A stretch of 20,000 nucleotides of DNA from an uncultured virus (IMG/VR IMGVR_UViG_3300008107_000141) (taxonomy: Duplodnaviria > Heunggongvirae > Uroviricota > Caudoviricetes): IMG/VR virus record IMGVR_UViG_3300008107_000141. The stretch is one strand, 5' to 3'. Both the position numbers and the translations under genes were made by a program. The notes beneath the pieces were generated by a model, which worked only from the letters and a program-made list of their open reading frames with translations, was not told where the DNA came from and made no database searches. Of the stretch, positions 3,009 through 19,397 are shown piece by piece (position 1 is the stretch's first letter; every line of letters starts with the position of its first letter).

Positions 3009-3716
3009 TTAGCAATCGTCTTTTGTACTAAGTACTATATTATTATCAGACCAGCACTGACCATATAGCGTGTGCCTTGAGTTTGGTCCAAGAACTTTTG
3101 TTACTCTGTGGGTAAATTCTTTGCCAATCGGAATATTTATTAACATGCCAGCCTTTGGCTTTACTATATAGCCTTTTTTAAATTCTATGTAGCCACCTTC
3201 AAAGTCATCATTCAGGTATATTGAGTGTGATGCAATCCTACTACCAGTAGCACCTGTATCTTCCCAGTGCCAATCCATAGCATAGTCAATATCTTCTGCG
3301 CTATCGGGGTTAGATCTAACTGCAAACATTTCTGCATTGCCAAGAGACATACTTTCGTCTCTATCTCTTTTTATTTCTTCGTCTGTACAATATTTGAATG
3401 TTTGAATCCCGCTGTTTGGTGCGTATCCTTCTGGAAGTACAGATCTCAGTCTTTCAAATATCCCCTCTGGGCCGCTAAAAATATCAAAAACTTCTTCTAT
3501 AACTGGATCATCTTGGTTTGGAATTGCAAGTGTGCCATCTTCATCATATCTAGGCTCACTCATAGGCCATTTGTTTAATATGTTTTTATATGGAGAACGC
3601 ATAGTTGTGTACCAATGGTTTGGATCATCACAATATTTTTTTAATAAAGACAATTCATTTTCTTTTAGAAAGTTTTCTATGTACCATAATCCTTCATCTA
3701 AATATACTTTTTCCAT
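3009..3716 (-). CDS. 2OG-Fe(II) oxygenase (prolyl-4-hydroxylase-like)
   Basis: IENFL N-terminus, WHWED, IYLNDDFEGG, KPKAG, HRV...R. Confidence 0.85.
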   Translation of the reverse strand: MEKVYLDEGLWYIENFLKENELSLLKKYCDDPNHWYTTMRSPYKNILNKWPMSEPRYDEDGTLAIPNQDDPVIEEVFDIFSGPEGIFERLRSVLPEGYAPNSGIQTFKYCTDEEIKRDRDESMSLGNAEMFAVRSNPDSAEDIDYAMDWHWEDTGATGSRIASHSIYLNDDFEGGYIEFKKGYIVKPKAGMLINIPIGKEFTHRVTKVLGPNSRHTLYGQCWSDNNIVLSTKDDC

Positions 3717-3719
3717 AAT

Positions 3720-4403
3720 TTAACAATCATCCTTTGTGCTTGCTATAACTATTGAAGGGTCTATGTAGGAGTTTCCGTAAAGAGTATGTCTTGAGTTTGG
3801 ACCCAAAACCTTATTAACTCTGTGTCTATATTTGTGGCCTCCAGGAATTACAGCAAGCGTTCCAGCCTTTGGCTTTAACTTAATAGGAACTTCAGCAAAC
3901 TCTAATTCTCCACCCTCGTAATCATCATTAAGATATAAACTGAAGGAGCATACAATGTTTTGTTCATGACCTGGATCTTCATGCCAATACATAGCAAAAT
4001 CTATATTTTTATCATCTATATTATATGAATTTATTATGTCCATATTTAAGTTTTCTTTTATCTGATCATCTGTCATATATTTAAAACTTTGGAGTGTGGC
4101 ATGTCTGCGGTATGATGGAGGAAGAACAGACTCAAGCCTTTGCCATACGCCATTTGGTCTTGTAAATACTGGAAGATCTATAACTTCAGATGTTTCGTTT
4201 GGAAATTCTATATTTCCATTTTCGTCATATTTAGGAACAATATTTAAAAATTTATTTAGTATATTTTTATAAGGCGACCTCATTGTTGGATACCAGCCAA
4301 GTTCGTCGTCTGTCTGTGTTTTGAACCACTCAAGTTCTTCTTTTGTTAAGAAATCTTCAATGATCCAAACCTTTTTGTCTTCATCTAGATATATTTTTTC
4401 CAT
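3720..4403 (-). CDS. 2OG-Fe(II) oxygenase, paralog of 3009-3716
   Basis: HED, LYLNDDYEGGEL, KPKAG and HRVNKVLGPNSRH; leaderless start (TGG-TATCAT-N6-ATG). Confidence 0.88.
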   Translation of the reverse strand: MEKIYLDEDKKVWIIEDFLTKEELEWFKTQTDDELGWYPTMRSPYKNILNKFLNIVPKYDENGNIEFPNETSEVIDLPVFTRPNGVWQRLESVLPPSYRRHATLQSFKYMTDDQIKENLNMDIINSYNIDDKNIDFAMYWHEDPGHEQNIVCSFSLYLNDDYEGGELEFAEVPIKLKPKAGTLAVIPGGHKYRHRVNKVLGPNSRHTLYGNSYIDPSIVIASTKDDC

Positions 4404-4625: not shown

Positions 4626-5384
4626 TTAGATGCCCATTTCTTTACGCTTTTGCGTAGCCGATATAGCATGAATATTTGCTCCCAAATCTACTTGTTCAAT
4701 CTTATAGCCTACATCACGACCATAAACAATATTTGTAATATTTGGCAGTCGTAATACTAATGTATCCTTAAATGGATTATCTTGCTGAATATATGTTGCA
4801 ACCTCATCATACTTCAATGGATCCTTTTCTGATGTCTTGTATGTATTGCGAACACCTACTAATACCTGCTTAGTTCTTTTGTGAGCCTCTTCTTTGAGAG
4901 CCTGATGCCCTTCATGCCAAGGCTGATATCTTCCTAACTGAAGAGTTGTTGGGGCAGACCAATCAAACAAGGCGCCCGCCTGTATTACAGTGTCTACTTC
5001 CTGCTCTAATGTGTATCCGTCTAGAATTCTGATATCAAATCTTTCTGGATCTTGCCACATTTTATTTGTATCTTCAAATCTACCTTGCTTAATTCTGTCT
5101 ACCCAAACAACAACATCTGCTGGGCCAAATGCCTCTCTGGTTTCTTTAGTAGGACAAACAAAGTCAACAATGACAGGAGCAACGCCCTGATTTGCAATTA
5201 GCCTTGCCATCTCTCCCATGCGACGAGCATGCTCAATCCTATCTTCGGCGGTAAATCCAAGATCAGAATTAACTGTAGATCTTACCTCATCAGCATTAAG
5301 ATGTATAGCATTAATTCTTTCTTTAAGTGCCGTTGCAAGTGCAGTCTTACCAGATCCAGGCAAGCCTATAATTTGTATGATCAT
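4626..5384 (-). CDS. Adenylylsulfate kinase-like P-loop kinase fused to a cytidylyltransferase-like (HxGH) domain
   Basis: GLPGSGKT, LNADEVR, DLGFTAEDR and DFVCP (CysC-like); C-terminal GRYQPWHEGH and ISATQKR. Confidence 0.85.
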   Translation of the reverse strand: MIIQIIGLPGSGKTALATALKERINAIHLNADEVRSTVNSDLGFTAEDRIEHARRMGEMARLIANQGVAPVIVDFVCPTKETREAFGPADVVVWVDRIKQGRFEDTNKMWQDPERFDIRILDGYTLEQEVDTVIQAGALFDWSAPTTLQLGRYQPWHEGHQALKEEAHKRTKQVLVGVRNTYKTSEKDPLKYDEVATYIQQDNPFKDTLVLRLPNITNIVYGRDVGYKIEQVDLGANIHAISATQKRKEMGI

Positions 5385-5484: not shown

Positions 5485-5556
5485 TATCTCCAACGGAATT
5501 CGAATCCGTGTTGCTGCCGTTGAGTTCGGGGCCTTAACCAACTTGGCTACTGCTCC
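5485..5556 (-). pseudogene. Chimeric pseudo-tRNA (5' half Met/Ile2-like, 3' half Glu-like)
   Basis: D-arm and T-arm are intact, but acceptor strands GGAGCAG/TGGAGAT and anticodon strands CCGAA/GGCAG do not pair; loop CTCAAC is 6 nt. Confidence 0.75.
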
Positions 5557-5564
5557 ATTATTTA

Positions 5565-5593
5565 ATTATAGTTTGTATCGTACTGCTTGTCAA
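5565..5593 (-). promoter_or_regulatory. Consensus sigma-70 promoter for the tRNA cluster
   Basis: TTGACA (5588-5593) -17 nt- TATAAT (5565-5570), 8 nt from the tRNA 5' end. Confidence 0.8.
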
Positions 5594-6567
5594 ATACCGT
5601 TGTCTTCAAGTCTTCGTAATATTTCTGCGGTATCTGGATCATTAATCATTTCTTCTATAGCAGCATTAACTGATGGTCTTGTTTCTGGCAGGGTATATAA
5701 ACGATTTTTAGTAATCTTATACAACAACTTTCTAATTCTTTCACAATCGTCATGTCTCCACCATGTATAACAAAATAGCCTATCTTCTGATTGAACTATG
5801 TTTAAACAAGTTTTATATTCTTCAATAATTTTATCTATAATATTTTTTTGTGCTTTTTTACAGTCATCACAAAAACAGTCACAGTCTTCTAGGTTATGAC
5901 ACAAACTCATTCTATATTTAAGAACTTCGCTAAAAATTTCGTCGTCCTGACTTAACATTAGGTGACTATTGTCTGTTTTATAATCTGTAAATCTAAAAAA
6001 AATCATCTTGACAAACTCTTGATCTTTAAATTTTTTAAAAGGCCTCCAATGAATTATTTCATTAGGATTAAAAATTAATGCTGAGTTGTCTTCAAGTTTG
6101 TAAACTTCTAAATTTAATCCCAACTCCCATTCAGTATTAGATTGCAACTGAAAGTTTATAATTAAATCTGTTTCGCAAGAATCAAAATGCGGTGGTAAAT
6201 TTGGTTCGCCATGTTTATTACTATATTCAACACAACTTATACCACTTAGTTTTAAATTTTTATTTGTTTTATCTTTTAATAAGTCGTTGAGTTTTTTTAA
6301 AACTTCTTCTGTTATTTCTATTCTTCCAATTCTAAACCTGCCAAGATCTGGATCTGGGCCTATTCCGCTTACATCTTCTAGGCTGGAGTCTCCATGAAAA
6401 ACAAAATTTTCATCAAATTCGTTTCTTTTTTGATTAACTTTTTCATAAATGTTTTTTAATTCTGTATCTGAAAAAACATTTTCTATTTTCCAAACATTTT
6501 TATTTTTTACGCATTCGTTGTAAAAAATAGTCAAGTCATACACCCTTTGCCTTTTTAATTGCTTCAA
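5590..6567 (-). CDS. 2OG-Fe(II) oxygenase-like domain fused to a Cys-rich ~105 aa C-terminal domain (start uncertain, possibly TTG at 6534)
   Basis: PNLPPHFD, HWRP and FVKMIFFRF are shared with 7798-8439; extension begins MSLCHNLEDCDCFCDDC. Confidence 0.75.
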   Translation of the reverse strand: MKQLKRQRVYDLTIFYNECVKNKNVWKIENVFSDTELKNIYEKVNQKRNEFDENFVFHGDSSLEDVSGIGPDPDLGRFRIGRIEITEEVLKKLNDLLKDKTNKNLKLSGISCVEYSNKHGEPNLPPHFDSCETDLIINFQLQSNTEWELGLNLEVYKLEDNSALIFNPNEIIHWRPFKKFKDQEFVKMIFFRFTDYKTDNSHLMLSQDDEIFSEVLKYRMSLCHNLEDCDCFCDDCKKAQKNIIDKIIEEYKTCLNIVQSEDRLFCYTWWRHDDCERIRKLLYKITKNRLYTLPETRPSVNAAIEEMINDPDTAEILRRLEDNGI

Positions 6568-9898: not shown

Positions 9899-10525
9899 AT
9901 GACAGTATTTCAAGATCCAGTAGAAAAAGTAAAAATCATTGAAAATTTTATAAACACGGAAGAATCAAATAAAATAATTAATTATATGAATCGTAATATT
10001 GTCAATGCCGAACCATGGATGAGCGACGGATCAAGTCCAAACTTTGTTTATCTTGAAAATAGATTTTATAAAAGAAGGTTTGGACAAGATGATGAAATGA
10101 GATCATATAAACCAGAGAAAGCCATAACAAGGCTTGAGGATATAGAGAACTTGGTTAAAGATATAGTCGAAAAGGCAAAATTAAAAATACAAGAACTATA
10201 CAATGAAGAAACACAATACCTGACATCACTATGGCTTACAAAGCATTTAAAAGGTGATTGGATCAACATTCATTCTGATGTAGGCAGTGGATATCAGCAG
10301 CATTTTGCTTATAGTTGTATTTTATATCTTAATACAGTAATTGATGGAGGAGACTTATATTTTCCAACTTTTAATTTTTCTGTTAAACCAATTGTAGGCA
10401 ACTTAGTTATTTTCCCATCGCAGAATGTAGATATGGTTCATCAAGTAAACGCTACACAGGAAGAAAGGTATACTATTCCTATGTGGTTTACCAAAGACTC
10501 AACAAGAGAAGTTTTTTTTAAATAG
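9899..10525 (+). CDS. 2OG-Fe(II) oxygenase (P4H-like)
   Basis: IHSD, ILYLN..DGGDLYF, KP..G.LVIFPS, HQV and RYTIPMWFT; TGA-TACAAT-N6-ATG. Confidence 0.88.
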   Translation: MTVFQDPVEKVKIIENFINTEESNKIINYMNRNIVNAEPWMSDGSSPNFVYLENRFYKRRFGQDDEMRSYKPEKAITRLEDIENLVKDIVEKAKLKIQELYNEETQYLTSLWLTKHLKGDWINIHSDVGSGYQQHFAYSCILYLNTVIDGGDLYFPTFNFSVKPIVGNLVIFPSQNVDMVHQVNATQEERYTIPMWFTKDSTREVFFK

Positions 10526-10552: not shown

Positions 10553-10864
10553 ATGACCCTACTCTACATACTCTATAGTCCCATACATAAGGCCGTTAAG
10601 GTGGGTATATCAGATGTTTCAGGTAGAAGGTTTGCAAGCCATAGGACCAAGGGCTGGATATTAATTAAGTATTGGGCCTTTTCTCGGCGGGATCAAGCAA
10701 GAGCCGTAGAAACCTTAGTACTAAACACACTAAGAGATAGGTATGGACATTTCTTGGATAAAGACGATATGCCACAAGGTGGTTATACAGAAACATTTGA
10801 TGCTAGTAAGATAACTAGACGAGGTTTGATAAGGATAGTCAACAATGCTATTAAAAGTCAGTAA
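10553..10864 (+). CDS. GIY-YIG superfamily (T5orf172/MUG113-like) protein
   Basis: LYILY...VKVGIS...RR..H...E...GYTETF; start moved to ATG 10553, which lies 6 nt after TATAAT (10541-10546). Confidence 0.65.
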   Translation: MTLLYILYSPIHKAVKVGISDVSGRRFASHRTKGWILIKYWAFSRRDQARAVETLVLNTLRDRYGHFLDKDDMPQGGYTETFDASKITRRGLIRIVNNAIKSQ

Positions 10865-11432
10865 ACCCTGCTCTATTTAATATGTCCCAATATTGTTTAG
10901 CATACACGAATGCAGAATATACAATACGATCCTTACCTGTGACCTGTTTTACAGCATGACTATATTCTTCACTTGCTGGAAACACTATTAATGTTCCCTT
11001 TTTAGGTGCAAACTCAATAGGTTTGTGTTCAAATATTAACTCTCCACCTGTGTATCCATCATTTAAATATAGCACAACACCAAGGGTAATCCATCTAGAT
11101 TCGTAATCACATTCTGGGTGGTTTTCGTAGTGATACCCCAAAGCCAATGGAGATGAATCCGTAGGGCTATACTTTTGCAACATAGATATCTTTCTTAGTT
11201 TTTGATCTTTATTGTTGGTTACAATAGAAACCTTGTCCTCAACGAGTTTTTTAAATTTATTGATCGCCTCTTCTGACTCAAATATAGAAAATGATATCTT
11301 TTCATGATGATCTTGTCTTCTGAGAGTCCAAGATCCGACATTAGCAAGAACCTCTTCTATGTCAGGATCTGATATAAAATTTTCTATGTAAAAGATATTT
11401 TCTTCTAGGTAGACTTTGTTGAAATTTTCCAT
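10851..11432 (-). CDS. 2OG-Fe(II) oxygenase (P4H-like, HxE)
   Basis: YHYE, VLYLNDGYTGGEL, PKKGTLIVFP, HAV and R. Confidence 0.85.
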   Translation of the reverse strand: MENFNKVYLEENIFYIENFISDPDIEEVLANVGSWTLRRQDHHEKISFSIFESEEAINKFKKLVEDKVSIVTNNKDQKLRKISMLQKYSPTDSSPLALGYHYENHPECDYESRWITLGVVLYLNDGYTGGELIFEHKPIEFAPKKGTLIVFPASEEYSHAVKQVTGKDRIVYSAFVYAKQYWDILNRAGFTDF

Positions 11433-16899: not shown

Positions 16900-17056
16900 G
16901 TATTAATTATGGCAGACAATCAGGGAAATGTCAACTCTATCGTAATTGTTTTTGGTTTTGATATTTTTGGGGATCTATTTCGTTCTTCGTAATTTAATTT
17001 AAGATTGATATTTTTATGTCCGAAATGTCCGAATCCCCACGTCCCGATTTTCTTTG

Positions 17057-17132
17057 CGATTCCGATGGGATTTGAACCCACGATCTCTACAGTGACAGTG
17101 TAGCGATTTAAACCAGACTAATCTACGGAACC
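17057..17132 (-). tRNA. tRNA-Asp(GUC)
   Basis: Acceptor GGTTCCG/CGGAATC, anticodon arm CTACA-CTGTCAC-TGTAG, T-loop TTCAAAT. Confidence 0.95.
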
Positions 17133-17138
17133 AATTGG

Positions 17139-17166
17139 TGAGCAGTTTTTATTCTTGCTCAGGAAT
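17139..17166 (-). ncRNA. Pseudoknot motif copy A
   Basis: ATTC-CT-GAGCA-A-GAAT-AAAAAC-TGCTC. Confidence 0.65.
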
Positions 17167-17173
17167 TTTTTAT

Positions 17174-18190
17174 TTATGCAATCTGCATTACATTTTGCAC
17201 AACTTTTAGCAAACGATTTTTTTCTGCATTGATAGCAGGGTCAAATCCGCTTGCTGCTGCAAAGATAGATTCGTTAGAACCACCTCTTGCGGAGCGATAC
17301 CAATCAAGGCGTTCAGTAAGCGCATTGAAAGCACCCCAAGCATTACCAGCAATCATACCATTGAATTCGCCAGTATAGATGTCATTGATAACATCAACCT
17401 TGTTTTCCCACTTCTTGAAAGCACCCTTAGAATCTTTTTCAGGCTTAGGGTAAGCAGCGAGAATAATATCATTGAAAGATTTGGCATTGACTTCTTTCTC
17501 AATCATAGCCTTAGCCATCAAATCAAATTCGTCCATATAAGCATTAGCAAGACCAAGAGTTTCACGAGCAATCTGCACTTTACCATTGGCAGTTTGTGTA
17601 TGACGAATCTTGAAAGATTGCTTGATACCATTCTTTTTCTTGCGACCACCTAGTGCAAGATTGAGAGTGTTAGCGCATACAACACGAACAGGTGTTATGC
17701 TTGCTTGAATAGCGATTGAGCCATCGTGTGATGTGTTGATAAGCAAATAAGTTTTTACCTTATCTGCAACACCGCTAGGGTCTAGAACAGTTTCACGCTC
17801 TAGTGCAAGTGAGCCGAATACAACACGACCACCCTTGATTGAGCCAGCAGTTTCCCAACGACCTCCGCCATCAAGAATATTATCACCGAATGAAAATAGG
17901 TCTTCATTCTGTAATGGGTGATAGCGTTCGCCAACAATACCGAGAATATCGGTTTGTGAGTTATCGGTAGGATTGGTACGAATAACATATTGATAAGATT
18001 TATCGCTTGTAAGATGTGATGGGGTTTCCAAATCTTCTAAACGAACATTCCAGTTATTTAGATTTGCAGCCTCTAACATTTCTGCAGTTGTTTTTTCTTC
18101 TGTAAATACAGTTCCTAAATTGTGCCAAGCAGGTTCTCTGAATGACGCAAAAGAAACTTTGCCATTTTGTGATTCTAAATCGTGAGCCAC
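17174..18190 (-). CDS. DUF932 family phage/plasmid protein (TIGR03299-like)
   Basis: REPAWHNLG, ETAGSIKGGRVVF and YLLINTSHDGS..ITPVRVVCANTL, IRHT; GTG start with AGGAG SD. Confidence 0.9.
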   Translation of the reverse strand: MAHDLESQNGKVSFASFREPAWHNLGTVFTEEKTTAEMLEAANLNNWNVRLEDLETPSHLTSDKSYQYVIRTNPTDNSQTDILGIVGERYHPLQNEDLFSFGDNILDGGGRWETAGSIKGGRVVFGSLALERETVLDPSGVADKVKTYLLINTSHDGSIAIQASITPVRVVCANTLNLALGGRKKKNGIKQSFKIRHTQTANGKVQIARETLGLANAYMDEFDLMAKAMIEKEVNAKSFNDIILAAYPKPEKDSKGAFKKWENKVDVINDIYTGEFNGMIAGNAWGAFNALTERLDWYRSARGGSNESIFAAASGFDPAINAEKNRLLKVVQNVMQIA

Positions 18191-18292
18191 AGTTTTCTCC
18201 TTTTTGTTTGTTGATATTTCAAGTATAGCAGTCTAGTCTGACAAATGCAAATCTGGATAATTAGATAAGGGATAAATCGGACATCTCGTAAA

Positions 18293-18331
18293 TGTGAGCA
18301 AATTCACACCTGTGGATAACCCTGTGGATAA
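18293..18331. promoter_or_regulatory. CRP/GlxR-type site abutting two DnaA boxes
   Basis: TGTGA-GCAAAT-TCACA (18293-18308); TGTGGATAA at 18311-18319 and 18323-18331. Confidence 0.7.
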
Positions 18332-18351
18332 CGGCACGGGGGGTTGAGGTG

Positions 18352-18393
18352 GAGCAGTTTAGACACTAAAGGATTTCCTCCATACTCAGGTGT
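18352..18393 (-). ncRNA. Pseudoknot motif copy D (with inserted hairpin)
   Basis: ACAC-CT-GAGTA-T-[GGAGGAAATCCTTTA]-GTGT-CTAAAC-TGCTC. Confidence 0.55.
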
Positions 18394-18500
18394 TAGGGAG
18401 TGCCAGGGGACTTTCGCAACAAGATCAATGCAATCTCGGGCTTTGCATCGCAGGTTGCCTTGAACGCAGGCTTCCACCCAATTCTATTTAGTTTTATTGG

Positions 18501-18528
18501 TGAGCAGTTTTATTTCTTGCTCAGGAAA
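18501..18528 (-). ncRNA. Pseudoknot motif copy B
   Basis: TTTC-CT-GAGCA-A-GAAA-TAAAAC-TGCTC. Confidence 0.65.
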
Positions 18529-18534
18529 GTTTTA

Positions 18535-18954
18535 TTACAAGTATCTAGCGATAGCGTTGTAAGTAGAAGTAGAAACTACTTCCTCATCTGTCATCTTGAG
18601 AATACGAATTGCGTTCTCAATTTCCTCTACCATTTCCTTATACTGCCAATCGTGGTAAGTATCAAAATCCTTTTCAGGTTCTTGTGGTAGTTCAATACTT
18701 CCAGCAGGTAGAGTGAAAGATACTGAGATTTCTCCGTTGTATCTCTTATGAGAAGACAAGTCTGTTGCTTTAGCAATCTTGTCAAGTGCTAACTTAGCAA
18801 TTTCCTTGTTGTATTTTTCTTGTGCCTTTGAGAACTTCTCCTCATTGACTTTTTGGTTAGCCTTATCCTTTTGGAGTTGGGCTAGTTTTGTTTCAAGTGC
18901 CTTGATTACCTTAGTGGTGGCAATCTTGACATTTATGGCTTTGCCTCTTGACAT
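18535..18954 (-). CDS. Hypothetical phage protein
   Basis: 139 aa, GAAAGGA SD, own TGC-TAGACT promoter. Confidence 0.8.
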   Translation of the reverse strand: MSRGKAINVKIATTKVIKALETKLAQLQKDKANQKVNEEKFSKAQEKYNKEIAKLALDKIAKATDLSSHKRYNGEISVSFTLPAGSIELPQEPEKDFDTYHDWQYKEMVEEIENAIRILKMTDEEVVSTSTYNAIARYL

Positions 18955-19017
18955 TGGGTCTGTCCTTTCATTAGTGGGGTGTATCTAGTCTAGCATTTCT
19001 ATGCTAGAAAATCAAGT

Positions 19018-19050
19018 TGAGCAGTTTATCCTTCTCATACTCAGGAGAGG
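19018..19050 (-). ncRNA. Pseudoknot motif copy C
   Basis: CCTCTC-CT-GAGTA-T-GAGAAGG-ATAAAC-TGCTC. Confidence 0.62.
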
Positions 19051-19068
19051 TTAGCGTTATTGCTAAGA

Positions 19069-19233
19069 TTACTTTGCTGTCCAAGTGGTATAGCGTGACT
19101 TACCATTGACATCAAGTTTCACACGAACATTACCATTGGCTTGTGGTGTAATCTCTGTGATTACTCCTGTGACCTTTGACTTCTGTGTGGTGTAGGTGTC
19201 GCCTACCTTGTAAGTTGCGGTTGCTACTGACAT
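19069..19233 (-). CDS. Small beta-rich (SH3/KOW-like) protein, 54 aa
   Basis: MSVATATYKVGDTYTTQKSKVTGVITEITPQANGNVRVKLDVNGKSRYTTWTAK; AGAAAGG SD. Confidence 0.75.
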   Translation of the reverse strand: MSVATATYKVGDTYTTQKSKVTGVITEITPQANGNVRVKLDVNGKSRYTTWTAK

Positions 19234-19397
19234 TGTGTTGCCTTTCTGTTAGAACGGCGAGAGCCATTTGCCAAGACAAGACTAACTCTAGTAACACTGT
19301 TAGACATTGGTGCGAAACTTGCGATACGACCTGTAACGCCTGTCTTGCTGGTGGTGAATAGGTCACCAATCTGATAAGTGTATCCTCCGAGGGTCAT
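19224..19397 (-). CDS. Paralog of 19069-19233, 57 aa, C-terminus possibly altered
   Basis: MTLGGYTYQIGDLFTTSKTGVTGRIASFAPMSNSVTRVSLVLANGSRR...; GAAAGGA SD. Confidence 0.7.
   Translation of the reverse strand: MTLGGYTYQIGDLFTTSKTGVTGRIASFAPMSNSVTRVSLVLANGSRRSNRKATQCQ

What the first reader, a model, noticed from the sequence alone, without database searches (positions are those of the whole stretch)
17139..19050. Four copies of a covarying H-type pseudoknot RNA motif downstream of early genes
Seen: four minus-strand (sense) copies of P1-CT-GAG(C/T)A-(A/T)-P1'-..AAAC-TGCTC at 17139-17166, 18352-18393, 18501-18528 and 19018-19050. P1 changes sequence but keeps pairing (ATTC/GAAT, TTTC/GAAA, TCTC/GAGA, ACAC/GTGT). 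The loop GAGCA/GAGTA pairs with the 3' TGCTC, and the C-to-T change gives a tolerated U-G wobble. Copy D carries an inserted hairpin. Three copies start 6-18 nt after a stop codon, and copy A ends about 7 nt before the tRNA-Asp 5' end. None has a U-tract. Inference: a conserved cis RNA element, such as an exonuclease-blocking 3' cap, processing signal, small ribozyme, or protein-binding/antitermination site. I cannot assign it to a named family.
Basis: partly seen in the sequence, partly recalled or inferred. Interest (0 to 1): 0.85.

Follow-up and report, generated by a model that had tools for sequence, protein, structure and literature searches.

The report
Widespread small pseudoknot RNA in phages
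The four repeats are copies of a roughly 30-base RNA pseudoknot with no entry in the RNA family catalogue, found almost unchanged in many phages and bacteria just ahead of places where RNA is cut or ends, so it probably caps the end of the message before it.

Summary
Four minus-strand copies lie at 17140-17166, 18352-18393, 18502-18528 and 19019-19048, and none is expected by chance. The same virus record holds two more copies.

The H-type pseudoknot is real. In 111 aligned copies, 96.4% of cells pair, 7 of 9 pairs show double changes, and 0 of 500 shuffles match this. P2 also covaries: AAGCA/UGCUU and GGGUA/UGCCC.

Rfam 15 has no match. It turned up in at least 133 IMG/VR loci and 120 genome loci across many phyla. 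It is also in the cultured cyanophage S-CRM01.

Context points to function. A same-strand tRNA starts 4-13 nt downstream in 16 of 227 copies. Hammerhead and twister candidates would cut about 6-13 nt downstream. DUF2800 RNA starts 1-2 nt downstream, and a T-run follows 30 of 225 copies.

My best reading, at about 0.4, is a compact 3'-end cap for the upstream RNA. Rivals are an RNase P mimic, a folding insulator, a transcription element, a ribozyme or sensor, and a host-factor site. No RNA ends were mapped. I could not check the uncharacterised RAGATH motifs.

The parts
17140..17166 (-). Pseudoknot copy A. P1 is ATTC/GAAT, L1 CU, P2 GAGCA/UGCUC, L2 A, L3 AAAAAC. ACCA follows the motif.
   Evidence: The covariance model scores it 43.0 bits, E 2.9e-11. 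It lies 7 nt after the stop of ORF 17174-18190 and 7 nt before tRNA-Asp.
18502..18528 (-). Pseudoknot copy B. P1 is TTTC/GAAA and P2 is GAGCA/UGCUC. ACCA follows the motif.
   Evidence: Scores 41.1 bits, E 1.1e-10. It lies 6 nt after the TAA stop of ORF 18535-18954.
18352..18393 (-). Pseudoknot copy D. P1 is ACAC/GUGU and P2 is GAGUA/UGCUC, with a U-G wobble. A 15-nt hairpin-capable insert sits in L2.
   Evidence: The model matches its 3' part at 15.1 bits. The whole copy in G002 scores 23.4 bits.
19019..19048 (-). Pseudoknot copy C. P1 is UCUC/GAGA, P2 is GAGUA/UGCUC, and L3 is longer (AGGAUAAAC).
   Evidence: Scores 24.9 bits, E 6.9e-6. It lies 20 nt after the stop of ORF 19069-19233.
17056..17132 (-). 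tRNA-Asp (GTC). Its RNase P site lies 7 nt downstream of copy A.
   Evidence: ARAGORN. Rfam tRNA, 64.2 bits.
17174..18190 (-). Upstream cistron of copy A, a 338-aa protein of phrog_1221 with unknown function.
   Evidence: PHROGs E 4.3e-102. Contigs from RNA libraries cover it.
18535..18954 (-). Upstream cistron of copy B, 139 aa, with no family match.
   Evidence: Contigs from RNA libraries cover it.
19069..19233 (-). Upstream cistron of copy C, 54 aa, with no family match.
   Evidence: Contigs from RNA libraries cover it.

Best explanation
Each copy is transcribed as part of the sense RNA and folds into a compact H-type pseudoknot:
- P1 is 3-5 bp of free sequence closed by a C-G pair.
- L1 is a 2-nt loop, CU.
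- P2 is 5 bp, GAGYA/UGCUC.
- One W sits at the junction between the helices.
- L3 is A-rich and ends in AAAC.

I read it as a portable 3'-end module. It sits directly after a cistron and a few bases before the point where the RNA is cut or ends. That point can be an RNase P site at a tRNA 5' end, a hammerhead or twister self-cleavage site, or a U-tract. After the cut, the pseudoknot is the terminal structure of the upstream RNA and shields it from 3'-to-5' exonucleases. Together with the cutting element, it breaks a phage polycistronic transcript into stable pieces.

Shown: the fold by covariation, the sense orientation, the wide distribution, and the position relative to stops and cleavage sites.

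Inferred: the loop-helix triples, actual cleavage in vivo, and resistance to exonucleases.
For: Structure (111 copies):
- 96.4% of cells pair, against 27-39% when the partners are slid.
- 7 of 9 pairs show double changes, and 0 of 500 shuffles reach this.
- P1 pair 4-17 is GC 34, AU 33, CG 23, UA 20.
- P2 compensatory variants are AAGCA/UGCUU in 3 records, GGGUA/UGCCC, GGGCA/UGCCU and GAGUA/UACUC.
- U-G wobbles occur in 24 of 111 copies at P2 pair 4. They would be A-C mismatches on the other strand, so the selected strand is the RNA sense strand.

Position after a cistron:
- Of 112 copies with an upstream same-strand ORF, 52 have the stop 0-10 nt before P1. The opposite-strand control gives 15 of 75.

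Position before an RNA end:
- 16 of 227 copies have a same-strand tRNA starting 4-13 nt downstream. The sixth copy of this phage lies 4 nt before tRNA-Asn.
- Hammerhead cores start 0-5 nt downstream in L011, L018, L152, L155, L224 and L252, with cleavage 6-13 nt after the motif. Rfam supports L155 (E 2.1e-6) and L011 (E 7.4e-4).
- Twister-P1 starts 2 nt downstream in L165 and L175.
- DUF2800 RNA starts 1-2 nt downstream in 6 loci, five of them at 140-157 bits.
- 30 of 225 copies are followed within 3 nt by a T-run. This includes the fifth copy of this phage.

The tRNA is read through the motif. No room exists for a promoter between copy A and tRNA-Asp, and one RNA-library contig spans both.

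Three unrelated cutting chemistries at the same short distance point to a role at the new 3' end, not to dependence on any one enzyme.
Against: - No RNA 3' ends were mapped. The public RNA data are assembled contigs and cannot show ends.
- RNA-library contigs bridge copies A and C. Cutting is therefore incomplete there, or those contigs derive from DNA.
- About 14 near-invariant bases across phyla is more conservation than a simple roadblock needs. That level is typical of ribozymes, aptamers or sites bound by a universal factor.
- 42 of 225 copies are followed by a Shine-Dalgarno sequence and a start codon, with no known cutter.
- In the small-ORF family, a normal terminator hairpin follows the motif, which makes a second 3' structure look redundant.
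- In S-CRM01, two copies lie 2-3 nt after a tRNA or tRNA-like element.
- Only about 30 of 225 copies have an identified processed RNA next to them.
- In an unselected sample of 20 genome loci, Rfam found nothing beside the motif.
- The hammerhead and twister matches are below Rfam's gathering scores.
Confidence: 0.4

Rival explanations
1. The motif mimics a tRNA acceptor stem and is itself cut by RNase P in loop L1, between U and the first G of P2. It would then be a minimal processing site, and might also be recognised by CCA-adding or 3'-trimming enzymes.
For: The fold places U at position -1 (110 of 111 copies) and a G-C first pair (105 of 111). An A follows the 3' strand in 142 of 225 copies. 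ACC follows in 28 of 225, against a background of 1.1%, and ACCA follows in 13 of 225, including window copies A and B. Passages read in PMC12710915 report that bacterial RNase P RNA cuts a small H-type pseudoknot in loop 1, provided an RCCA motif follows. The same passages say RNase P also cuts the TYMV tRNA-like pseudoknot.
Against: ACC is absent from 197 of 225 copies, yet that paper found cleavage depended on RCC. The stacked helix has about 9-10 layers, not the 12 of a tRNA acceptor/T arm. A cut inside the motif would be redundant where a tRNA or ribozyme cuts 4-13 nt further on. Strict conservation of the P2 sequence and of AAAC in L3 is not explained by shape mimicry.
Confidence: 0.13
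2. The motif is a fast-folding bookend, or insulator. It keeps the upstream coding sequence and terminating ribosomes from interfering with the folding of the next element, whether that is a tRNA, a ribozyme, DUF2800 RNA or a ribosome binding site.
For: The motif abuts structured RNAs at 1-8 nt. It lies about 10 nt ahead of a Shine-Dalgarno sequence and start codon in 42 of 225 copies. It starts 0-10 nt after stop codons. In two small-ORF families the stop codon lies inside the motif.
Against: This does not explain the copies followed only by a T-run (30 of 225) or by a terminator. Any stable hairpin would serve, so the near-invariant loops remain unexplained.
Confidence: 0.12
3. The motif acts on transcription. 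It could replace the hairpin of an intrinsic terminator, or pause or modify RNA polymerase in the manner of put-like antitermination.
For: 30 of 225 copies are followed within 3 nt by a T-run. Copy E is followed by ATTTTTTT and then a TATAAT-like box. Copy D and copies in related phages are followed by a promoter-like region with TTATCCACAGG repeats. In S-CRM01 the first copy closes a tRNA cluster ahead of a TATAAT box.
Against: Most copies (195 of 225) have no T-run. tRNAs and ribozymes 1-13 nt downstream must be transcribed through the motif. An antitermination element would be expected once per operon, not after each cistron.
Confidence: 0.1
4. The motif is an autonomous functional RNA. It could be a very small self-cleaving ribozyme, or a ligand-binding aptamer built like the preQ1-I aptamer.
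For: About 14 near-invariant bases persist in a 30-nt fold across many phyla. This level of conservation is typical of ribozymes and aptamers. The motif lives in the same neighbourhoods as hammerhead and twister. From memory, other ribozyme classes were found in such neighbourhoods. A second subtype with the tail AAAAGGCUC recurs.
Against: A second cutter placed 0-2 nt before a ribozyme is redundant. Five to eight copies per phage, ahead of unrelated genes, tRNAs and terminators, is unlike a riboswitch. L2 is a single base, which leaves little room for a pocket. No Rfam ribozyme or riboswitch model matches at E <= 10.
Confidence: 0.08
5. The motif is the binding site of a widely conserved host protein or of the ribosome. 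Candidates include ribosomal protein S1, an RNase or a chaperone.
For: The same sequence occurs in hosts of many phyla, so any partner must be near-universal. The loop bases are conserved beyond what pairing requires.
Against: No partner is indicated, and no co-occurring gene was looked for. Some hits are in DPANN archaeal and Saccharibacteria MAGs, which may be binned phage contigs. Host breadth is therefore uncertain.
Confidence: 0.12

Closest known systems
Intercistronic 3'-end stabilisers. Examples are terminator hairpins, REP hairpins of enterobacteria, and the RNase III sites between phage T7 early genes (all recalled, no call).
   Same: They are dispersed and intergenic, lie in the sense orientation directly after cistrons, and occur several times per genome. 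I infer the same job: leaving a folded 3' end on the upstream RNA after a cut.
   Different: This motif is a 30-nt pseudoknot, not a hairpin. Its loop and P2 bases are nearly invariant across phyla. It relies on a separate cutter such as a tRNA with RNase P, a hammerhead or a twister. Protection from exonucleases is not shown.
preQ1-I riboswitch aptamer (Rfam RF00522). The architecture is recalled.
   Same: The size is about the same, roughly 30-34 nt. Both are H-type pseudoknots with a short P1, a 2-3-nt L1 and an A-rich L3 ending in C just before the P2 3' strand.
   Different: No model match at E <= 10. L2 is a single base. There are many copies per genome in 3' UTRs and ahead of tRNAs, with no link to queuosine genes.
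Luteovirus-type frameshift pseudoknots such as BWYV (recalled).
   Same: Both are compact pseudoknots with a 2-nt L1 beginning with C, one unpaired junction base, and an A-rich loop that could lie in the P1 minor groove.
   Different: This motif lies after stop codons, not inside overlapping ORFs. No slippery heptamer is placed upstream. tRNAs or ribozymes follow it.
Pseudoknot substrates of RNase P: the TYMV tRNA-like structure, and the biotin-aptamer pseudoknot with an RCCA tail (PMC12710915, passages read).
   Same: Both are small H-type pseudoknots. Their L1/P2 junction offers U(-1) and a G-C first pair, followed by A, and in 28 of 225 copies by ACC.
   Different: RCC is missing from most copies. 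The helix is shorter than an acceptor/T arm. Cleavage was not tested.
[quoted passage not shown] 2015, not held; PMC11061315 passages).
   Same: This motif is found in the same phage-like neighbourhoods and directly beside hammerhead and twister candidates.
   Different: Identity with any numbered RAGATH motif could not be checked. The only statement I read is that 33 of them remain uncharacterised. Nothing in Rfam 15 matches.
Exonuclease-resistant RNAs of flaviviruses (xrRNA) and triple-helix ENE elements (recalled).
   Same: The proposed logic is the same: a compact knotted or triplex fold that stops a processive exonuclease.
   Different: Those block 5'-to-3' Xrn1 or protect poly(A) in eukaryotes, and they are larger. 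Here the proposed direction is 3'-to-5', in bacteria, and it is untested.

Membership tests
Any Rfam 15 family | A covariance-model match at the gathering score, or at least a weak E-value. | tested here: not met
   At gathering threshold the window gives only 3 tRNAs. At E <= 10, 16900-19300 gives nothing on the four copies except noise, CRISPR-DR66 at 20.5 bits against a cut-off of 45 on the opposite strand.
preQ1-I riboswitch | A match to RF00522 and a position in the 5' UTR of queuosine or preQ1 genes. | tested here: not met
   No match. The contexts are 3' UTRs, tRNA leaders and ribozyme flanks.
preQ1-I riboswitch | An H-type pseudoknot with an A-rich 3' loop. | tested here: met
   The structure is supported by covariation. 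L3 ends in AAAC in nearly all copies. This is a likeness of shape only.
Intrinsic terminator | A stable hairpin immediately followed by a U-tract. | tested here: not met
   0 of 4 window copies have a T-run within 3 nt. 30 of 225 copies elsewhere do, as does the fifth copy of this phage.
Hammerhead, twister, pistol and hatchet ribozymes | A match to the class consensus. | tested here: not met
   No ribozyme model hits the motif itself. Hammerhead and twister matches lie beside it.
Self-cleaving ribozyme of a new class | Site-specific self-cleavage. | not testable with these tools
   This needs in vitro transcription and cleavage assays.
-1 frameshift stimulatory pseudoknot | A slippery heptamer 5-9 nt upstream, inside an ORF with an overlapping -1 frame. 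| tested here: not met
   Copies A-C lie 6-20 nt after stop codons, and A is followed by a tRNA.
tRNA-like RNase P substrate | U or another pyrimidine at -1, a G-C first pair, and a purine discriminator base. | tested here: met
   U at -1 in 110 of 111 copies, and G-C in 105 of 111. A follows in 142 of 225.
tRNA-like RNase P substrate | An RCC(A) motif after the helix. | tested here: inconclusive
   ACC follows in 28 of 225 copies and ACCA in 13 of 225, against a background of 1.1%. It is present in window copies A and B and absent in C and D.
tRNA-like RNase P substrate | Cleavage by RNase P. | not testable with these tools
   This needs an enzyme assay.
RAGATH motifs | Recurrent location near twister and hammerhead ribozymes and their associated genes. 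| tested here: inconclusive
   The motif is adjacent to hammerhead or twister candidates in 8 loci. The defining paper and its supplement are not held, so identity with a listed motif is unknown.

The most novel reading that the evidence does not exclude
The motif is an active punctuation mark, not a passive cap. It would be the smallest natural self-processing RNA. Either it is a new 30-nt self-cleaving class, or it is a minimal acceptor-stem mimic that recruits the universal RNase P, and perhaps CCA-adding enzymes, to cut and tag phage transcripts in hosts of many phyla.
Probability: 0.15. Interest if true: 0.95.

Novelty: new variant of a known kind. Interest (0 to 1): 0.8.

Why it matters
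If the reading holds, phages and other mobile elements share a tiny, portable RNA module. Paired with a tRNA or a ribozyme, it would cut and cap polycistronic transcripts.

That would give bacterial and phage hammerhead and twister ribozymes a concrete job, which has long been unclear (recalled). It would also add a bacterial counterpart to the exonuclease-resistant RNAs of eukaryotic viruses.

On the practical side, it would hand synthetic biology a 30-nt mRNA stabiliser or insulator likely to work in many hosts.

Whatever the function, this motif is absent from Rfam. Its roughly 14 near-invariant bases span many phyla and it has strong covariation, so it is a good target for structure and biochemistry. 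Its presence in the cultured cyanophage S-CRM01 makes direct testing possible.

Tried and rejected
Chance or a DNA-level protein site: rejected. Shuffles give 0 matches. The reversed-pattern control gave 1 hit against 88. U-G wobbles and the sense orientation point to RNA.

Two-box promoter (sigma-70 or sigma-54 type): rejected by eye. The spacing between the two conserved blocks varies, and the covarying P1 sits between them.

boxA-like antiterminator: only TGCTC is shared with the boxA sequence I recall, and the bases after it are not conserved.

Riboswitch: unlikely, given the many copies per genome and the unrelated downstream elements.

Public RNA data: four freshwater metatranscriptome runs hold contigs over the three upstream genes.
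- Summed contig depth falls from 5645 to 17 (X15), 2769 to 6 (X17) and 119 to 0 (X16) between the bin holding the end of ORF 18535-18954 and the bin holding copy B.
- Contigs cannot show ends, and no DNA run was laid for comparison. I draw nothing from this.
- Contigs also bridge copies A and C.

The 106-nt spacer between copies B and D does not fold better than shuffles (z 0.41).

Megablast against GenBank phages found nothing. The blastn search found only tRNA-Asp regions, but one of those led to S-CRM01.

A Pfam scan of the small-ORF flank failed because I chose the wrong frame. I read the frames in a script instead.

Literature (six searches in all) found no description of this motif.
- Weinberg 2015 is not held.
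- In Fremin 2023, the alignment files among the supplements could not be searched.
- The Minerva preprint does not mention the motif in the passages I read.
- Two look-ups of earlier scan notes showed no prior record of this motif.
Full report
**The observation**

The minus strand of 16900-19300 holds four copies of P1-CU-GAGYA-W-P1'-(N)AAAC-UGCUC. They lie at 17140-17166 (A), 18502-18528 (B), 19019-19048 (C) and 18352-18393 (D). D carries a 15-nt hairpin-capable insert between P2 and P1'.

The pattern CTGAGYA-N2-30-AAACTGCTC matches four times, all on the minus strand. Two hundred shuffles gave none. The exact word AAACTGCTC occurs only at these four places.

The stops of the upstream ORFs lie 7, 6 and 20 nt before P1 of A, B and C. 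Copy A ends 7 nt before tRNA-Asp.

The window is part of a 39.7-kb freshwater virus record, G002. That record holds two further copies on the plus strand:
- One has P1 CCAC/GUGG, lies after a plus-strand gene, and is followed by ATTTTTTT.
- The other has P2 GGGCA/UGCCC and lies 4 nt before a tRNA-Asn.

A covariance model finds no other copy in the window.

**Is the fold real?**

Of 149 matches, 95 have exactly the 7-nt gap seen in copies A and B, which chance would not give. Among the 96 gap-7 copies, the bases flanking the conserved blocks pair as follows:
- closing pair: C-G in 92
- second pair: U-A 49, A-U 38, C-G 5
- third pair: G-C 33, A-U 25, C-G 20, U-A 16

My patterns fixed P2, so I searched 49 virus records again, allowing three mismatches. 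This gave 88 hits against 1 for the reversed pattern. I fetched 20 variant copies, and 18 have a sound P1. Those 18 include:
- AAGCA/UGCUU in three records
- GGGUA/UGCCC
- GGGCA/UGCCU
- GAGUA/UACUC
- G-U wobbles
- a recurrent second subtype with the tail AAAAGGCUC

On an alignment of 111 copies with the pseudoknot written out:
- 96.4% of cells pair, against 27-39% when the partners are slid.
- 7 of 9 pairs have double changes.
- No shuffle out of 500 reaches the observed values for cells paired, pairs or cells with double changes, or the covariation score; the count of further pair types was matched in 114 of 500.

The caveat is that most rows were found with patterns that fixed P2. Its variation is therefore under-sampled, not over-called.

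U-G at P2 pair 4 in 24 of 111 copies would be A-C on the other strand. This, together with the orientation data below, places the selection on the sense RNA.

**Distribution**

Rfam 15 has no family for the motif at gathering scores or at E <= 10.

The record titles name the following groups:
- Saccharibacteria (many records)
- Aminicenantes
- Thermodesulfobacteriota
- Lachnospiraceae
- Lactobacillaceae
- Clostridium
- Cyanobacteria
- Bacteroidota
- Beta- and Gammaproteobacteria
- Actinobacteria
- Akkermansia
- Spirochaetota
- one DPANN archaeal MAG

Of 121 copies there, 118 have three or more consecutive P1 pairs. Many records are MAGs, and some contigs may be binned phages, so host breadth is provisional.

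Complete or near-complete relatives carry about 6-8 strong copies each, clustered within a few kb.

The motif is also in a cultured phage, Synechococcus phage S-CRM01, where it is unannotated:
- One copy lies 5 nt before tRNA-Asp.
- One lies 3 nt after tRNA-Tyr and ahead of a TATAAT box.
- One lies 2-3 nt after an unannotated tRNA-like element.

These copies show further P2 variation: AAGCA/UGUUU and GGCA/UGCC.

**Context**

Of 225 non-identical copies with a validated P1, 112 have an upstream same-strand ORF. In 52 of those, the stop lies 0-10 nt before P1. The opposite-strand control gives 15 of 75. The class 'stop inside the motif' is confounded, because the motif itself contains UGA and UAA.

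Downstream:
- 16 of 227 copies have a same-strand tRNA starting 4-13 nt after UGCUC.
- Six loci have canonical hammerhead cores whose stem III begins 0-5 nt after the motif, putting cleavage 6-13 nt downstream. Rfam supports two of them, below its gathering score.
- Two loci have twister-P1 matches starting 2 nt downstream, at E 3e-10 and 2.5e-6, also below gathering.
- Six loci have DUF2800 RNA starting 1-2 nt downstream, five of them at 140-157 bits.
- 30 copies have a T-run within 3 nt.
- 42 copies have a Shine-Dalgarno sequence and an open start within 45 nt.

In an unselected sample of 20 viral loci, 2 had a tRNA or hammerhead directly adjacent. In 20 genome loci, none did.

**Interpretation**

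Three unrelated ways of making an RNA end recur a few bases downstream of the motif: RNase P, two ribozyme classes, and U-tract termination. The motif also begins just after a stop codon. The simplest common denominator is a structure meant to sit at the 3' end of the upstream RNA. In this view, a cutter plus this pseudoknot makes a cut-and-cap punctuation mark.

The geometry would allow base triples, with a 2-nt L1 across a 5-bp P2 and an A-rich L3 along a short P1. This is inferred, not shown. Such triples could explain both the mechanical stability and the sequence conservation.

I put this reading at about 0.4. Against it:
- No ends are mapped.
- RNA-library contigs bridge copies A and C.
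- The conservation exceeds what a roadblock needs.
- Many copies precede ribosome binding sites or normal terminators.
- S-CRM01 has copies directly after tRNAs.

**Rivals**

A mimic of a tRNA acceptor stem cut by RNase P is attractive for four reasons:
- U sits at position -1.
- The first pair is G-C.
- A follows in 63% of copies.
- ACC is enriched tenfold and is present in window copies A and B.

RNase P RNA also cuts a small pseudoknot in loop 1 when RCCA follows (PMC12710915, passages). But ACC is absent from 88% of copies, and a cut there would duplicate the neighbouring cutter.

A folding insulator, a transcription element, a new ribozyme or aptamer, and a universal-factor binding site each explain part of the data. 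They are scored in the Rival explanations section.

**Novelty**

Nothing in Rfam matches, and six literature searches found no description. I could not read Weinberg et al. 2015. Its RAGATH list is described in PMC11061315 as having 33 still-uncharacterised members and may include this motif. The alignment files of Fremin et al. 2023 could not be searched.

I therefore rate the motif a new variant of a known kind of element. It is of high interest because of its conservation, its breadth and its tie to ribozymes whose biological role is unsettled.

Noticed in passing
window 18309-18331 (-): Two tandem copies of TTATCCACAGG, which contains the DnaA-box-like word TTATCCACA. They lie between copy D and a TTGCAT...TATACT promoter-like pair ahead of ORF 17174-18190. 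The same words follow pseudoknot copies in other phages (L268, L276), often after AAAATTTTCGACCC...GTCGGGCGTGTC.
   Followed up: partly
window about 5485-5600 (-): A TTGACA-17-TATAAT promoter-like site is followed by a tRNA-like stretch (GGAGCAGTAGCCAAGTTGG...GGATTCGAATTCC...), just upstream of tRNA-Arg. Neither ARAGORN nor Rfam calls it a tRNA.
   Followed up: no
L140, L146, L149, L158, L163, L167, L170, L193, L194, L200, L205, L236, L247 and others (genome loci): A family of roughly 20-aa ORFs with a Shine-Dalgarno site, of the form MKRFxVPRxAHCSEGC..S*. In most, the stop is the UGA inside CCUGAGCA of the pseudoknot. A terminator hairpin follows. They occur in Aminicenantes, Thermodesulfobacteriota and other anaerobe MAGs.
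   Followed up: partly
L139, L160, L173, L183, L197, L246 (Saccharibacteria loci): A 14-codon upstream ORF (MSSDGEQWVGPEHD*) runs through the pseudoknot and stops at the UAA in L3. A GGGAGG site and an ATG follow about 10 nt later. This may be a translation-sensitive arrangement.
   Followed up: no
L217 (Saprospira grandis DSM 2844), L190 (Cloacimonadota MAG), probably L189 (Leptolyngbyaceae MAG): The pseudoknot sequence lies between two copies of a direct repeat of at least 22 nt, spaced like a CRISPR spacer. Host arrays seem to hold spacers that cover this conserved phage motif.
   Followed up: partly
G029, G041, G045, G046, G007, G003 (L259, L260, L263, L265, L266, L269, L270, L272, L274): A second subtype of the motif has the tail AAAAGGCUC in place of AAACUGCUC. 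The C-to-A and U-to-G changes always occur together, and P1 stays intact. It sits alongside the main type in the same genomes.
   Followed up: partly
L280 about 2440-2507 (S-CRM01 record about 130265-130332): An unannotated tRNA-like element with the acceptor-like pairing GGAAGTG/CACTTCC and a T-arm-like CAGGTTCGATTCCTG. A pseudoknot copy follows it 2-3 nt later.
   Followed up: no
window 3009-4403, 9899-10525, 10851-11432: Four paralogous ORFs match 2OG-Fe(II) oxygenase families (phrog_61). A kinase-like ORF lies at 4626-5384. This is an accessory-gene region of a freshwater phage.
   Followed up: no
window 18979-19000 (-): An 8-bp hairpin, TCTAGCAT-AGAA-ATGCTAGA, lies 19 nt downstream of copy C and ahead of ORF 18535-18954, with no U-tract.
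   Followed up: no
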